Shown: piece after piece, positions 15,001 to 21,000 of the stretch | How positions within the stretch are numbered: position 1 is the first letter of the stretch | Layout of the letters: each line of letters opens with the position of its first letter | Assembly (NCBI GenBank): GCA_039794045.1 | Contig: JBAMLY010000007.1 | Coordinates: 1 to 35,500, forward strand | Reading direction: 5' to 3' | Length of the DNA stretch: 35,500 nt | From: Candidatus Micrarchaeia archaeon | Lineage (GTDB): Archaea; Micrarchaeota; Micrarchaeia; Norongarragalinales; UBA8480 | Position numbers: made by a program

Positions 15001-18000
15001 ACGATTGGGCGCGTGGAAAAGCCGCTTTATTTGGCGAAGCCGCTCGTGAGAGAAGCAGGGAAACTGCAGGGAAAAACGCTGACTGACTCAAAACAAGGTG
15101 TGTTTTAATGAAGTGCCCGGAATGCGGAAGCACGAGGCTTAGGAAGAACCCGGAACGCGGAGAAATAACTTGCGTTGACTGCGGGCTCGTGATAGAAGAG
15201 AGCCTCGTCCAAGAAGGACCAGAGTGGAGGGCTTTCGACGCGGAACAGCGCGCCAGCCGCGCCCGCACGGGAGCGCCGTTGAAGTACATGTCGCCCAACA
15301 AAGGGCTAGTCACCGAAATAGACCAGTACAATCGTGACGCGCGCGGCGGCAAGATCGCGCCGTCGCAGCAGGCACAGCTTTACCGGATGCGCAAGTGGCA
15401 CAAGCGTGCTTCTATATCAAACAGTATAGAACGCAATCTCGCTATAGCTTTGACTGAACTAAACCGGGTCGCGTCGCACTTGGGTCTCAGCGAAAGCATT
15501 CGCGAGGCGTGCGCCCTGCTTTACAGGAAGTGCGTCGAGAAAGGCTTGATTCGCGGCAGGCAAATTGAGAGCGTGGTCAGCGCAGTGATTTACGCGGTAT
15601 GCAGGCAGTACGGCATTCCGCGCACGCTTGACGAAATCAGTGCTGTCGCCGAGATTCCCAAGAAAGAGATAGGGCGCACTTATCGCTTGATAGCCCAAGA
15701 ACTCGAATTAAAAGTTCCTTTGACGAACCCTCGCTTTTACATTGCGCGCTTCATTACGGCGTTGAAGTTGAGTGGTGAGACGCAGAAGCAAGCGCAGGAA
15801 ATTCTTGACAAGGCAATAAAGAGGGGCCTCATAAGCGGCCGCGGCCCAATGGGGGTGGCCGCTGCGACGGTCTACATTGCTTCTGTCGTGACTGGAGAGC
15901 GGAGGACTCAAAAAGAAGTCGCCGACGTCGCGGGAGTGACGGAGGTAACGATTCGCAACCGCTACCGAGAACTCAAGAAAGCGCTTGACTTGAAGGTAAG
16001 CATTTAAGCCTTCAAGGCTTTTTTGCTGTTGAAGCCAGCACGCGCAAGGCGGCTTCGCGCAATGAATTTAGTTTTTCGGTTTTGAACCCTTTCTTGCCAG
16101 CTGGCTTCAAGTGAAAGAGCTTGTAAGACAGGGAAGGCTTTATTTCCACGTAGATGGCTCCGTTGTTTAACCCGAAGTAGTGAAGCGTGCCAGTAAACTT
16201 TTCTGGTTTTCTCGCGCCAAAAAAATTTTCTTTAATGAAGGAGTCGATCTTGTCCGCTAGTTCTTTCTCTTTTAAAGCGACTTGTTCTTCAGTGAAAAAC
16301 GGTTTCTTGAAAGGCATGCAATCCCTTCCTTTAAAGTAGGAGAGCGCGCAATTAAAAGAATTACTTGCCAGTTTCTTTCGTGAAGCACTTGTTTGAAGAC
16401 GAGGGACTACGCAAGCTAGAGCAGCGCTTCAAGAAAATGGCTGCCTTTCTAGAAAAAACTTTGGTGGAGCGCAAGCCAGTGCTCTTGGAATACCACGACG
16501 ACGGAGACGGAGTGTTCGGAGCGCTTATAGTCAAGAAGGCTTTAGAGGAAAAAGCGGCGCTGCTTGGAGTCCCGCTCTCACTTTACTGCCTGCAAAGCAG
16601 TTCTTCTGCTTACTCTGAGGAAGACGCGCGGAGGGACGCGTGCCAGCACGAGTTGCGTGCGCCGCTGTTGTTGGTGGTGGACTTTGGCTTGAACGAGGAC
16701 AGCGAAAAAGGCGTGGAGCTAGCGCGGCGCGCTGGCTTCGCAGTGGCGGCGATAGACCACCACCCGTTCCCAAAAAAAATTGAGGGGCACTACGACTGCA
16801 TTGTAGCCCCCCAACAAGAAGGATTAGGGCCTGAATACTGTGCTGGACTGCTTTGCTTTGAGGTAGCAAGCGCTATGGGTTGCGCGCCGTCGCAAGAATG
16901 GGCGAGGGCAGCGCTCAAGAGCGACAACAGTCGTTTTATGCGCGAGGAAGACGACTTGCTTGCGAGAGCAGTTGATTACTTGCTCATAGCGAGCAAGCAA
17001 AAAAAGCCTCTTTCTTTTTACGAGCGAGTGCTTGAAGACAGGAGAGCGTTAAAAGAGTATTACGCTAGAGCCGTGGAAAACGTAATGGAAATGCTTGAAA
17101 AAGCAGTCAAGACAGCAAAAATAGTTGCGATTGGAGACAATGCGAGCGCTGTCTTGCTCGACCTCGAAAAGTGCGGTTGCGCCAAGAACGTTTATCCCTC
17201 TAAAGGAAAAGCAGTCAACGAGGCGCACAACAAGTTTTCCTTGGAGTTGGGTGGCGCAGTGGTGACACTGGGTTTCACGCGAGACCGCATAAGCTTTCGA
17301 GCGAACGCGGAAGCGATGAAGCGCGGCGCGGCAGCGAACCCAGTGATTGCGGAGTTAAAGAAAGAATTTGGTTCAACTATAGTGTCGGGGGGAGGACACG
17401 ACGTGGCGGCGGCGTTGAAGGTGCGTGGAGGAAGCGCTCGCTTGGTGGCTTTGCGGTTCGCTGAACTTGTTGGCAAGCAACTTCGCAGGAAAGCAAACTG
17501 AAAGCTAAATAAGGGCGAAACACCAAAATATTGACGGGAGATGTAAAATGCCTGAACGAAGCAAACCTCTTTCGAGGGAACTGCCGTCAGTCACGCAAGC
17601 AGTGAAAGAGCACTGGAAGAACTTCGGCGCTGAAAAAATGAAGGAATTCATTAAAAGCTTGGAATACTCGCCGGACCCTACAACGAACTCGAAGAAAGTC
17701 GCTTACGCGATAAACTTGTTCACGAACCACTTCCTTGACTTACCTTCTTTTTTGTACGCGCGAAAAGTTTTTGCTCGCCCCAACGAAATAATGGAAGTAC
17801 ACAAAAAAATGATTGAAAACATAGCAAAACTAAACCCAAAAACCGCGCCCAACAAGCAACACGTAATCAACAACATTGCCTGGATACTAAGCACGAGCCC
17901 AATGTTTTACGCGCCAGTAATAGACGCTGAAAAGTTGCCGCCTCTGCCTTACCAAAAACACTACGGCACGCAAGAAATAAAAGGCATTCTCGCCACTGTG

Positions 18001-21000
18001 CTCCAAAAAATTCCCCCGCAAAAAGTTGACTCTAAAGTGGTTTACCTCACATCAAAAAAGCTTGCAGAAAAACTGGAAAAAGAAGGAATTCCGGCGCGCG
18101 TGACTGACGTCAGCAAGGCATTCCAAGAACTGTTTCCGCACTTGAACCCCAACGACGTAACAATTGCCGTGGCAGACGCGGCAGCCGAAAAACTTGAAAA
18201 AATTCAGACGAAGGCGCGCCACGCCAAGGAAGACGTTTTCGCTGAAGCCCTGGAAAAAACAAGGTATTTGCCGCCCCACGAGCTAGCAAAAATACTTTCC
18301 CAAACCAAGAAAAAACCAGCGGACAGTCAAGGAATAACTCACGTTACTTACTTGATAGATAATTTGCACGCGTTCTCTAAAATTAACGACGAGGAACTCG
18401 GAGAATTCGTTGAAGCGCGCTTGAAAAATATTTACGCGGCGAGTGCTGACGACACGGAATCGCTAAGAAAACTTGCAACTAACTTGCATGAGTTGAACAA
18501 GCGGCTCACCCTACAAATAAAGGAGTTGAGCGAAAAACATGGCTACCCAGAGTCAAACCCGCTGATAAAGCGCCGCAAAATAATAATGGGCAAAATAATG
18601 CCTTTGTGGGCGAAAATAGAAGACGAACTATTAAAGCGCTCGATGCTCCAGCAACTCGCCCCCAAAAAGTGAGCAAATGAGTCAGCCGAAAAACAAGTTC
18701 TCAGTGTACAAGCCCAACAAGAACTCTTCGGGCAGCGCAGTCCAGTTTGACTTCAACCGCGAAAAGCAATGCATTTTCCTGGAAGCAGCAAGGCAAGTGG
18801 CTTCGCAGGCGCAGGGCGCACAGCAAAACGCTTTCGACTGGGGAAACAAAATAGTCTTCAAGCTCGGTTTGACGGACATGGGAAAGCTCCTCGCAGTACT
18901 GCAAGGTCGCATTAAAAGCGTGGACTTGTTCCACGACCCGTCAAAGGGACAGTACACGCTGGGCACGGAAGTCAAAAACAACGCAGTCAGCTTCTCTAAA
19001 GGCGATTATGGTTACTTCTTGAAAGTTTCATCGCAGGGACGCGACGGCAAAGTCAGCGCAATCCAAATAAGCATAACAGAAGACGAGGCAGCGCTCCTGC
19101 AAGTATTGCTAGCTAAAGCAGTGGAAGAGTCCCTAGGTTGGTGAGTCAAAGCAAGTCTTGAGCGAGTTGCAGGGCTTCACGCTTGCGCTTGCTGCCGGCT
19201 TCAATGAATAACGTGCTCACGCGAGGCAAGGGAGTAAGCTTAGCCACTAGAACGCCTTTCGAGTCTTTTATCAGTAACGCGTTGCGAAACTTTTGCGTTG
19301 AAAAACCGTAAGCCGAAGCGAGCTTGGCGACATCGCTTTCGCTCACCCGTCTCCCCAAATGAATCAAGCTATTGCCTTCCCGAGTTTCAGCGAAAGCCTT
19401 GCCGTGGTGTTCTTCTTTCACGATGTTCTTCAATCCCTTTATTCCCCAAGCCATTAAGGGTTCACCGTAGCATTAGAAAAGTTTGCGAGTTGGGTGAAGT
19501 ACTCCGTTGAAGCGTTTTGAGTCTGGTTCGCGCCAGGCTGTAAAACGAATGCCTTGATAACGGTAATCACTATGACTATAAAGAGCACTACTGCGCCAGC
19601 CAAGAGAATGTATTCAATGGCGCCCTGCGCTTTTTCATCCATGAAAAACCTTAAGCCAACCGAGTTTTAAATCCTTGCTTGCTGCTGCGAGACTGCTTCG
19701 CGTATGGCTGCGAGCTTCTCGTAATAAGAAGCCCTGCCTGCAACGAAATTAAAGCGCGCTGAAGCAAGGGCAACCACTACTGCCACGCCGAGAATCACAG
19801 CTATTACGATTAAGTTGTTGGAGACAGCTGCAATGAACATGCCAGTAATGCCGCCGTTTTTTCCCTTGATTGGCTCGAGTTCCTTGCGGTAAATTTCTTT
19901 TCCCTCGCTGGAAACTACTAGAACTGGCTTCGCGGCTTCCTCGGAAGTGGTGGCTTCCACGTAAATTTTTTTCGTGGCGTTTTCGCCGGGTTGCAAGTCA
20001 AAGGGCGCTGGGCTCTTGACTATCCAGCCGTCAGGCAAGCCGGTTATCGTTGCGTAAACTTCCTTCAAGGTCTCATTGCCTGGATTTGAAACCGTGATCT
20101 CAATAGCGTACTGCAAGCTGGAATTGTCTGGTGAGGCGTTCACTGAAGGCTGCAGAGCGCGAGCTGGCTGCGCTGGCGCTACCACCTTGAAAGTGAAGTC
20201 CTTCCACCCTACTATCCTTCCTCCCTCTATGACTTGGAGAGCCAAGTGAAGTGAGTCTCCTTCTGCCGCGTTTTCGCAGCGAACGTCAAACTCTGCCTTG
20301 CCGACTTCATTACGCGAAAGCGCTAGTTTTTCTGGCCACAATACCGGCTTTAATGCGTCGTCGTCGCCCACGAGCTTGAGTTGAAAGTCGCCTGCGGCTC
20401 CGAAGTTGCGTAGCTCAACTTTTATGGTGCGAAGAATTCCGGGTTCTATCTTTATCGTGTCAGACTGCGGGAAAACAGGAGATACTTGAACGTAGTAGTA
20501 AGACGGGTCAAAGTAAGCGTGGGCTCCATTGTACTCGTTGTAGTTTTCTTGTTTCGCGTGAAAGTACTGGGGGCACTCGCGCAACGGGTAAACGCTGGCG
20601 ACTACGCGCAAGGAAGCACTCTCTGCCTTGGAGCCGTCGGGCCTCTTCAAAGAAACCGACAACTTGATTGGAAAATCTCCCTCGAAACAAGAAGGCGTGG
20701 AAAGGCGCACGATTATGCTTTTAGTAGCGCCTGCAGGCACGAGTCCCTGGGAAGCGTCAAACCAGGCGTCAACTATGCTGGACTGCGCGCTGATTTCAAA
20801 CAAGCGCGGCTGGCTGTCGTCGTTCGTGAACGAGACGATCAAGCGAGCACTCGACTCGTCAGTAAGCGAAACCGATGAAGCCGAAGCTTGAAGCGACAAC
20901 GCAGAAGCCATTCCTGCGAGCAATGCTACCGCAATCAAGGCAACGCCCGCGGACGCCAAAACGAGTTTTCTCATTAACACAACCCCACGTTCAATGATGT

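What a model noticed while it worked through the whole genome (the two positions that open the first line are those of the whole stretch)
16380..19144. Plant-type Whirly ssDNA-binding protein in a Micrarchaeon, linked to a DHH/RecJ-like nuclease
Gene g00319 (C7:18677-19144, 155 aa) is a bona fide member of the Whirly family (Pfam PF08536), a family regarded as plant-organelle specific, and it sits two genes downstream of a DHH/RecJ-like phosphoesterase (g00317) that is its direct neighbour in relatives. I read it as an archaeal Whirly ssDNA-binding tetramer that works with the DHH nuclease in DNA end processing/repair. If true, Whirly proteins are not a plant invention but exist as a conserved lineage in one order of DPANN archaea, giving a tiny prokaryotic model and a candidate source for the eukaryotic family.
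Evidence so far: Pfam Whirly 50.5 bits, i-E 6.7e-15, above gathering cut (pfam.tsv); best Swiss-Prot hit WHY1_ARATH 32 % id over 112 aa. AlphaFold model from 18-seq alignment pLDDT 88.7; Foldseek PDB top hits are StWhy2 3n1h, AtWHY1/3 4koo/4koq (TMq 0.72, E 4e-9) and T. brucei MRP1/2. relatives.tsv: family in 36/67 genomes of order Norongarragalinales, 45/539 Micrarchaeota, 56/10117 Archaea, 219/189785 Bacteria; six-frame search: 40 of 68 order genomes, 15 of 22 high-quality ones. In 4 of 7 relative loci examined a g00317-like DHH gene lies directly upstream of the Whirly gene. 22 homologs, all PF08536, named only hypothetical. Homotetramer test (4 copies, 18-row alignment): ipSAE 0.91 in 3 runs vs best of 3 [...]
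(Added by a program. Inside this text positions count along the whole contig: contig position 1 is position 1 of the stretch shown here. "Call 12" and the like, gene names such as g00115 and contig names such as C1 are that model's own, and its searches are not shown. The text may have been shortened before it was handed on; [...] marks where a part breaks off. The agent that wrote the report below was given it as the finding of a first reader that could run no searches.)

Follow-up and report, generated by a model that had tools for sequence, protein, structure and literature searches.

The report
Archaeal Whirly protein beside DHH nuclease
A tiny archaeon carries a true relative of the plant 'Whirly' single-stranded-DNA-binding proteins just downstream of a DNA/RNA-trimming enzyme; such relatives also occur in phages, probably bacteria, and protists, so the case is real and useful but not unique.

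Summary

In 22 of 40 Whirly-bearing genomes a DHH-superfamily gene lies at most one gene upstream on the same strand, and three different paralogues are involved: HAN-like 15, NrnA-like 6, PggH-like 1. The link is still not universal.

The evolutionary reading is weaker than claimed. The family has 1078 clusters, including phage contigs, likely bacteria (a lead) and protists. A plant paper already used bacterial and archaeal sequences as outgroups. This scan has reported archaeal Whirly beside a HAN-type nuclease on other DNA before.

Tetramer formation, nucleic-acid binding and cooperation with the DHH enzyme are inferred, not shown. I rate it a new member of a known kind, of moderate interest.

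The parts
18677..19144 (+). Whirly-family protein, 155 aa, basic (pI 9.2). Two beta-beta-beta-beta-alpha repeats. Invariant in the archaeal clade: Y11 K12 P13, F53, W55, H86 D87, W155.
16365..17501 (+). DHH/DHHA1 phosphoesterase of the HAN type (nuclease domain only), 378 aa. An alternative start is the GTG at 16380.
17548..18672 (+). Orphan ORF of 374 aa inserted between the DHH and Whirly genes. Its stop lies 4 nt before the Whirly ATG.
   Evidence: ORF. Sequence. No Pfam, NCBIfam, PHROG or Atlas match. Found in 0 of the 67 other order genomes.
15108..16007 (+). Transcription factor B (TFB), the upstream anchor of the conserved block in which the DHH and Whirly genes sit.
   Evidence: Pfam TFIIB 151 bits. 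Cluster c1 lies upstream of the locus in 16 loci.

Best explanation
ORF 18677-19144 encodes a compact, basic member of the Whirly family. It most likely assembles like its solved relatives and binds single-stranded nucleic acid without sequence preference.

In Micrarchaeota it is a vertically inherited accessory gene. It is repeatedly placed directly behind a DHH/DHHA1 phosphoesterase. In this genome that enzyme is a HAN-type 3'-to-5' single-strand exonuclease domain that lacks HAN's own Zn-finger, S1 and OB domains.

My best reading is that the Whirly protein holds or presents single-stranded DNA (possibly RNA) that the DHH enzyme trims, in DNA-end processing and repair or in nucleic-acid turnover.

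Shown: family membership, fold, intact DHH catalytic motifs, gene linkage.
Inferred: tetramer formation, nucleic-acid binding, and cooperation between the two proteins.
For: Membership and fold:
- Pfam 50.9 bits against a cut-off of 23.
- A profile of 22 archaeal proteins hits WHY1, WHY2, PBF-2 and StWhy2 at about 1e-8.
- The model has the bbbba-bbbba topology.
- Median pI is 9.2 over 34 archaeal Whirlies.

The partner enzyme:
- DHH motifs are invariant in 12 orthologues.
- By its abstract, HAN is a Mn-dependent 3'-exonuclease on ssDNA and ssRNA (PMC6158738).

Linkage, over the 40 Whirly-bearing genomes of the order:
- 15 have the HAN-like gene upstream, on the same strand, at most one gene away.
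- 6 have the NrnA-like paralogue there. All 6 are in family f9, in a different gene context, and 5 of them have an EndoIII-like glycosylase between the two genes.
- 1 has the PggH-like paralogue there.
- 3 are cut by a contig end, and 15 are unlinked.

Further points on linkage:
- Genomes carry only 1-4 DHH matches each.
- When the genes are directly adjacent, the gaps are -17 to 38 nt in 7 of 8 cases.
- The f9 Whirlies nest inside the order's clade, so the second pairing arose later.
Against: - 15 of the 40 Whirly-bearing genomes show no DHH neighbour. There the Whirly gene stays in the TFB/Trm1 block while the HAN-like gene sits on another contig, or in G025 about 8 kb away.
- 20 of 28 Whirly-negative genomes keep the HAN-like gene. 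In at least 4 of the 10 loci examined, the same block simply lacks Whirly. Neither gene therefore needs the other.
- In this genome an unrelated orphan gene separates the two.
- NrnA-like and PggH-like enzymes act on very short oligonucleotides (a statement from the names of their solved relatives). A strand-binding helper is not obviously needed for such substrates.
- There are no biochemical or expression data.
- The N-terminal 35 residues, where plants carry the KGKAAL motif (recalled), fall outside all sequence alignments to plant proteins.
Confidence: 0.55

Rival explanations
1. The protein is a general single-strand-binding or nucleoid protein with no specific DHH partner. The adjacency is inherited gene order within a conserved housekeeping block.
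For: - The whole block S8e - Gar1-like - TFB - Trm1 - DHH - Whirly - Ig-like protein - TrmB - S3Ae - S15 - tRNA synthetase is conserved across families.
- Whirly stays in the block when the DHH gene has moved (G012, G015, G024, G034-G037).
- The DHH gene stays when Whirly is absent.
Against: - In family f9, Whirly has left that block and sits behind a different DHH paralogue in 6 of 6 readable genomes.
- In G066 it follows a third paralogue at one gene's distance.
- With 1-4 DHH genes per genome, repeated chance juxtaposition is unlikely. This is inference; no formal test was run.
Confidence: 0.2
2. The protein binds RNA, like T. brucei MRP1/2 or phage ChmC. It serves RNA decay and nucleotide salvage together with nanoRNase-type DHH enzymes, which matters in a genome-reduced symbiont.
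For: - HAN also degrades ssRNA (PMC6158738 abstract).
- Two of the three partner paralogues resemble NrnA and PggH.
- The surrounding block is rich in translation and RNA genes.
- ChmC is a Whirly-fold tetramer that prefers RNA (bioRxiv 10.1101/2023.09.22.559000, passages read).
Against: - By sequence the protein is close to plant Whirlies (E about 1e-8) and barely to MRP1 (E 0.083).
- In 5 genomes a DNA glycosylase sits between the DHH and Whirly genes.
- Plant Whirlies bind both DNA and RNA, so fold alone cannot decide between the two.
Confidence: 0.15
3. The protein is a sequence-specific transcription factor, as the Pfam name says.
For: The Pfam family title is 'Whirly transcription factor'. 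The gene lies in a block with TFB and a TrmB regulator.
Against: No HTH or other specificity domain was found. The solved plant entries are deposited as single-stranded DNA-binding proteins. The operon-like partner is a nuclease.
Confidence: 0.03
4. The gene is a recent import from a phage, or an assembly contaminant.
For: The wider family has a large phage branch.
Against: - The gene sits in a conserved housekeeping block of a 35.5-kb contig.
- Its tree largely follows the taxonomic families.
- The archaeal clade is well supported, at 99.
- A profile of the archaeal proteins found no relative in viral contigs.
Confidence: 0.02

Closest known systems
Plant organellar Whirly proteins (StWhy1 = PBF-2 p24, StWhy2, AtWHY1/2/3; Pfam PF08536; PDB 1l3a, 3n1h, 4koo, 4kop, 4koq)
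   Same: - Same Pfam family, matched over the cut-off.
- Shared sequence blocks DW...K, FHDPxKG and a C-terminal GW.
   Different: - No transit peptide and no tails: 155 aa is the bare fold.
- The N-terminal strand carries YKPNK..G.GAAVQF where plants carry KGKAAL (recalled). This part is not aligned by sequence.
- It is encoded behind a DHH nuclease.
- It is accessory, with patchy presence in its lineage.
[quoted passage not shown]
   Different: Almost no sequence relation (profile E 0.083). No Pfam MRP match for the window's protein. MRP1/2 bind RNA as a heterotetramer, whereas here there is a single gene.
Hef-associated nuclease HAN of Pyrococcus furiosus (PDB 5yh1; PMC6158738)
   Different: It lacks HAN's DnaJ-Zn-finger, S1 and OB domains, and scores far below the HAN equivalog cut-off (83.6 against 840). 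Most orthologues in relatives carry an extra N-terminal domain of about 80-100 aa that this genome's copy lacks.
Bacterial SSB with RecJ (e.g. PDB 5f56, 'RecJ complexed with DNA and SSB-ct')
   Different: SSB has an OB fold and recruits RecJ through an acidic tail. The archaeal Whirly has a different fold and no tail. No contact is shown here.
Phage Whirly-type proteins (ChmC of jumbo phages, related by fold only; uncultured large phages with PF08536-type genes)
   Same: These are stand-alone proteins of about 150-200 aa with the Whirly fold. A protein on viral contig L053 passes Pfam Whirly at 27 bits, and 11 further viral loci carry relatives. ChmC is a homotetramer that binds RNA and DNA.
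   Different: They form a different clade from the archaeal proteins. The 12 viral loci I examined have a different gene context, with no DHH neighbour.

Membership tests
Whirly (Pfam PF08536) | Sequence match to the family profile over the curated cut-off | tested here: met
   50.9 bits against a cut-off of 23, E 1.9e-13, covering residues 32-142. PDB Whirly chains score 6.4e-7 to 1.4e-5 with the single sequence and about 1e-8 with the profile.
Whirly (Pfam PF08536) | Fold of two beta-beta-beta-beta-alpha repeats | tested here: met
Whirly (Pfam PF08536) | Conserved N-terminal lysine motif (KGKAAL in plants; motif recalled, and its role in higher-order assembly taken from the title of PMC3245945 in a search listing) | tested here: inconclusive
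   The archaeal clade has an invariant Y11 K12 P13 at the end of strand 1. This YKP(N/R)K motif is widespread in the family. No sequence alignment to plant proteins reaches this part, and I made no residue-level structural superposition.
Whirly (Pfam PF08536) | Homotetramer ('whirligig') | not tested
My one complex job held four copies but scored only the DHH partner.
Whirly (Pfam PF08536) | Binds single-stranded DNA or RNA | not testable with these tools
   Only indirect evidence: basic pI of 9.2, and conserved aromatic and basic residues on the strands.
HAN (Hef-associated nuclease), for the DHH neighbour | DHH/DHHA1 catalytic motifs | tested here: met
   D46, D48, G49; D106; D131 H132 H133 P134; and G342 G343 G344 H345 are invariant in 12 orthologues.
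HAN (Hef-associated nuclease), for the DHH neighbour | Score over the NCBIfam HAN equivalog cut-off | tested here: not met
   83.6 bits against a cut-off of 840. The gene is HAN-like, not a HAN equivalog.
HAN (Hef-associated nuclease), for the DHH neighbour | N-terminal DnaJ-Zn-finger, S1-like and OB domains (per the PMC6158738 abstract) | tested here: not met
   The protein starts at the nuclease domain. It aligns to HAN profile positions 204-381 of 612 and to chain residues 325-738 of 5yh1. Pfam finds only DHH and DHHA1.
HAN (Hef-associated nuclease), for the DHH neighbour | Nuclease-domain fold closest to HAN | tested here: met

The most novel reading that the evidence does not exclude
Whirly plus a DHH enzyme is a dedicated two-gene module for handling single-stranded nucleic acid in Micrarchaeota. 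In it, a free-standing Whirly tetramer does the strand-binding job that OB and S1 domains do inside full-length HAN, and it can be re-paired with different DHH exonucleases. Together with the phage, bacterial and presequence-bearing protist branches, this would mean the plant organellar Whirlies descend from an old prokaryotic or viral family of non-OB single-strand binders.
Probability: 0.25. Interest if true: 0.65.

Novelty: new member of a known kind. Interest (0 to 1): 0.42.

Why it matters
Plant reviews still call Whirly proteins plant-specific (abstracts of PMC9070903 and PMC11712025).

A 155-aa archaeal version with no targeting peptide or tails would be a minimal model for how the fold binds single strands and assembles. 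Its repeated pairing with DHH exonucleases gives a concrete, testable partner. I found no such pairing in print: the five papers holding both 'Whirly' and 'RecJ' are plant organelle papers by title and abstract start, and no listed paper combined Whirly with DPANN or Micrarchaeota.

The value is tempered in three ways:
- The family is broad.
- Archaeal and bacterial sequences have already been used as outgroups in a plant study.
- The same kind of locus has been reported before in this scan.

Tried and rejected
- Complex prediction (4 Whirly copies plus the DHH protein, DHH scored): 'no answer', score 0.00 in two runs, controls not run. This is no evidence either way. The homotetramer was not scored.
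- A tree with plant Whirlies: searches with the broad alignment A2 and with the protist alignment A6 returned no plant protein. The direction of any transfer to eukaryotes therefore stays untested.
- Naming bacterial members: three alignments were too diverse for the search for related loci. The narrower A8 found no relative in genome contigs. The second cluster look-up gave no organism names.
- tblastn of the window protein and of P0079 against GenBank phages: no match.
- PHROGs: no family for 13 family members.
- The archaeal profile found no relative in viral contigs.
- Expression: no RNA holder listed; read laying was not used.
- AU test of 'all 34 genome-derived archaeal rows form one clade': rejected (p 3.9e-6). 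The test was ill-posed, because 12 unlabelled metagenome proteins nest inside the clade, and G407 lies outside on a long branch. I draw nothing from it.
- Idea that Whirly replaces RPA/SSB: short OB-fold frames exist in the genome, while PF00436 and PF08646 were not found. I did not pursue this.
- The orphan ORF 17548-18672: no informative match anywhere.
- The supplements of PMC11712025 held as text do not name the archaeal outgroup sequences. Its Figure S4 was not visible.
- Promoter and terminator scans were at chance level.
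Full report
**What is there.** Three ORFs lie head to tail on the + strand.
- A DHH/DHHA1 phosphoesterase at 16365-17501 (378 aa).
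- An orphan ORF at 17548-18672 (374 aa).
- A 155-aa ORF at 18677-19144, whose ATG follows the orphan's stop after 4 nt.

The 155-aa protein matches Pfam Whirly at 50.9 bits (cut-off 23) and has no other family. The genome is 655 kb in 16 contigs and 92% complete. Named homologues are 'hypothetical protein' of Candidatus Micrarchaeota. I could not check the order name.

**Is it a Whirly?** Yes, by sequence and by fold.
- The single sequence finds AtWHY1, PBF-2 p24, WHY3, StWhy2 and WHY2 at E 6e-7 to 1e-5. A profile of 22 archaeal proteins finds them at about 1e-8.
- Shared blocks are DW..K, FHDPxKG and the C-terminal GW.
- The AlphaFold model (22-row alignment, pLDDT 88.7, pTM 0.84) has the two beta-beta-beta-beta-alpha repeats.
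- Foldseek's top hits are MRP1/2 and the plant structures.
- The first 35 residues are not covered by any sequence alignment to plants. There the archaeal clade has an invariant YKP in the motif YKPNK..G.GAAVQF. This motif recurs through the wider family.
- Tetramer formation and nucleic-acid binding were not tested here.

**Distribution.**
- The family is in 40 of 68 genomes of the order, and in 15 of 22 high-quality ones.
- In a sample of 401 genomes of the phylum, 39 are positive: 31 in the own order and 8 in five other families of the class.
- In a FastTree of 176 rows, and in an IQ-TREE of 74 rows, the archaeal proteins (all but G407's) form one clade of 45 rows, with support 96 and 99. 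The clade largely follows the taxonomic families.
- Whirly-negative genomes keep the same locus. In G030, G004 and G032 the order is TFB - Trm1 - DHH - next gene, and in G009 TFB - DHH - next genes, with nothing in Whirly's place.
- The gene therefore looks old in the class, vertically inherited, and lost several times. It is accessory.

**The wider family.**
- A profile search of 1.84 billion cluster representatives finds 1078 at E<=1e-3 and 407 at E<=1e-10. Most are 140-175 aa.
- Of 97 diverse members, 53 pass Pfam Whirly at E<=1e-3.
- Two are named: Thecamonas trahens and Amoeba proteus. With three unnamed proteins they carry N-terminal extensions and form their own clade.
- The nearest ESM Atlas clusters are labelled Bacteria (Verrucomicrobiota) and Viruses (Uroviricota) (a lead only).
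- I confirmed a viral branch. A 137-kb IMG/VR contig encodes a 154-aa protein that passes Pfam Whirly at 27 bits. 11 further viral contigs of 32-181 kb carry relatives in one conserved module.
- In print:
  - Plant reviews call the family plant-specific (PMC9070903 abstract).
  - PMC13392464 says in its discussion that Whirly/Pur-alpha occurs in three domains (passages read).
  - PMC11712025 states in its methods and in a figure legend that bacterial and archaeal sequences served as outgroups (passages read). Its held supplements do not name them.
  - Phage ChmC is a Whirly-fold RNA-binding tetramer (passages read).
  - No listed paper combined Whirly with DPANN or Micrarchaeota.
- This scan holds 102 notes on Whirly, mostly from phages, and several on DPANN archaea. 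One describes an archaeal Whirly beside a HAN-type nuclease. My results agree with it independently.

**The DHH neighbour.**
- Its motifs (DxD-G, D, DHHP, GGGH) are invariant in 12 orthologues.
- Its best family is HAN, at 83.6 bits, far under the cut-off of 840.
- Its best solved relative is 5yh1, the nuclease domain of P. furiosus HAN.
- It lacks HAN's N-terminal domains.
- The genome has one other DHH gene, an NrnA-like one on contig C2. I found no GAN/RecJ-Cdc45-type gene in it, although relatives have one.

**Is the link real?** Part of it is plain conserved gene order. The block S8e - Gar1-like - TFB - Trm1 - DHH - Whirly - Ig-like protein - TrmB - S3Ae - S15 - tRNA synthetase recurs across families. 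Three facts go beyond that.
- In family f9 the Whirly gene has left this block. In all 6 readable genomes it sits behind the NrnA-like DHH paralogue (4ls9 at 4e-11, NrnA at 2e-9). In 5 of the 6 an EndoIII-like DNA glycosylase lies between the two genes. The HAN-like gene lies elsewhere in those genomes.
- In G066 a PggH-like DHH protein (7d62 at 8.6e-35) lies one gene upstream. The same paralogue is near Whirly in two genomes of another order: one gene away on the opposite strand in G288, and four genes away in G191.
- The f9 Whirlies nest inside the order's clade, so this pairing is secondary.

The count over the 40 Whirly-bearing genomes of the order is:

| Upstream neighbour | Genomes |
|---|---|
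| HAN-like DHH | 15 |
| NrnA-like DHH | 6 |
| PggH-like DHH | 1 |
| Cut by a contig end | 3 |
| Unlinked | 15 |

Genomes carry only 1-4 DHH matches each. I judge the association non-random, but I ran no formal test. Against it, 15 genomes are unlinked, and 20 of 28 Whirly-negative genomes keep the HAN-like gene. In this window an orphan gene, absent from the 67 other genomes of the order, separates the pair.

**Mechanism.** My best reading, at about 0.55, is that a basic Whirly oligomer binds single strands and works with a DHH exonuclease. The median pI of the archaeal Whirlies is 9.2.

Whether the substrate is DNA or RNA is open.
- For DNA (end processing, stalled-fork or base-excision repair): the glycosylase neighbour, HAN's repair role by its abstract, and an ERCC4 nuclease gene in the same window.
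- For RNA (decay, salvage): the NrnA-like and PggH-like partners, and the fold's tie with MRP1/2.

**Verdict.** This is a new member of a known kind. The recurrent DHH pairing is the new and testable element.

Noticed in passing
window 17548-18672 (+): An orphan 374-aa ORF sits between the DHH and Whirly genes and is absent from the 67 other genomes of the order. The same spot holds other unrelated small ORFs in relatives: 239 aa on the opposite strand in G020, 238 aa in G021, 71 aa in G008. It looks like a hot spot for gene insertion.
   Followed up: partly
window 31783-32130 (-): An ERCC4 (XPF/Hef-type nuclease) domain gene, 72.8 bits, in a 230-aa open frame, lies 12.6 kb downstream of the Whirly gene. 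It is of interest because HAN is known as a Hef partner.
   Followed up: no
G000 whole genome: Only two DHH-family genes were found in this genome, one HAN-like and one NrnA-like. The GAN/RecJ-Cdc45-type gene (DHH + DHH_CID + DHHA1, about 515 aa) present in relatives such as G041 and G066 was not found. The genome is 92% complete, so its absence is not shown.
   Followed up: partly
L033-L042 (alignment A5): 8 of the 11 other HAN-like orthologues aligned carry an extra N-terminal domain of about 80-100 aa (consensus ...NPDY..C...VV.V...) that the copies in this genome, G006, G008 and G041 lack. Its fold was not examined.
   Followed up: no
L051 5956-6771 (-), L066 2909-3958 (-), L063 5593-6342 (+); P0010, P0011: Some Micrarchaeota Whirlies are much longer by my longest-ORF calls (249-349 aa; database proteins 226-243 aa), with N-terminal extensions. 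In P0010 and P0011 these are low-complexity and rich in T, Q and P.
   Followed up: no
L053, L074-L084 (IMG/VR contigs of 32-181 kb): One lineage of large uncultured phages carries a Whirly-family gene in a strictly conserved module: glycosyltransferase - five unknown genes - Whirly - three unknown genes on the opposite strand, with HNH endonuclease genes nearby in L053. There is no DHH gene in the stretch read.
   Followed up: partly
P0077 (Thecamonas trahens), P0164 (Amoeba proteus), P0059, P0090, P0146: Non-plant eukaryotic or eukaryote-like family members carry N-terminal extensions that look like mitochondrial presequences and the prokaryote-type YKPN motif. They form their own clade together with short, unnamed metagenome proteins.
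   Followed up: partly
window 19454-19642 (-) and 19667-21064 (-): A 62-aa protein has a class III (archaeal pilin-type) signal peptide, at 22 bits, just under the cut-off. Next to it is a 465-aa protein with an Ig-like/NEW3 domain. The latter (cluster c4) is conserved downstream of the Whirly locus in 11 loci.
   Followed up: no
L052 and L065 (G074, G116; another order): Here the Whirly gene lies between a histidine phosphatase (His_Phos_1, 140 bits) and a GTPase, behind a conserved 303-aa protein with no Pfam or PDB match. This is a different, conserved context without a DHH gene.
   Followed up: partly
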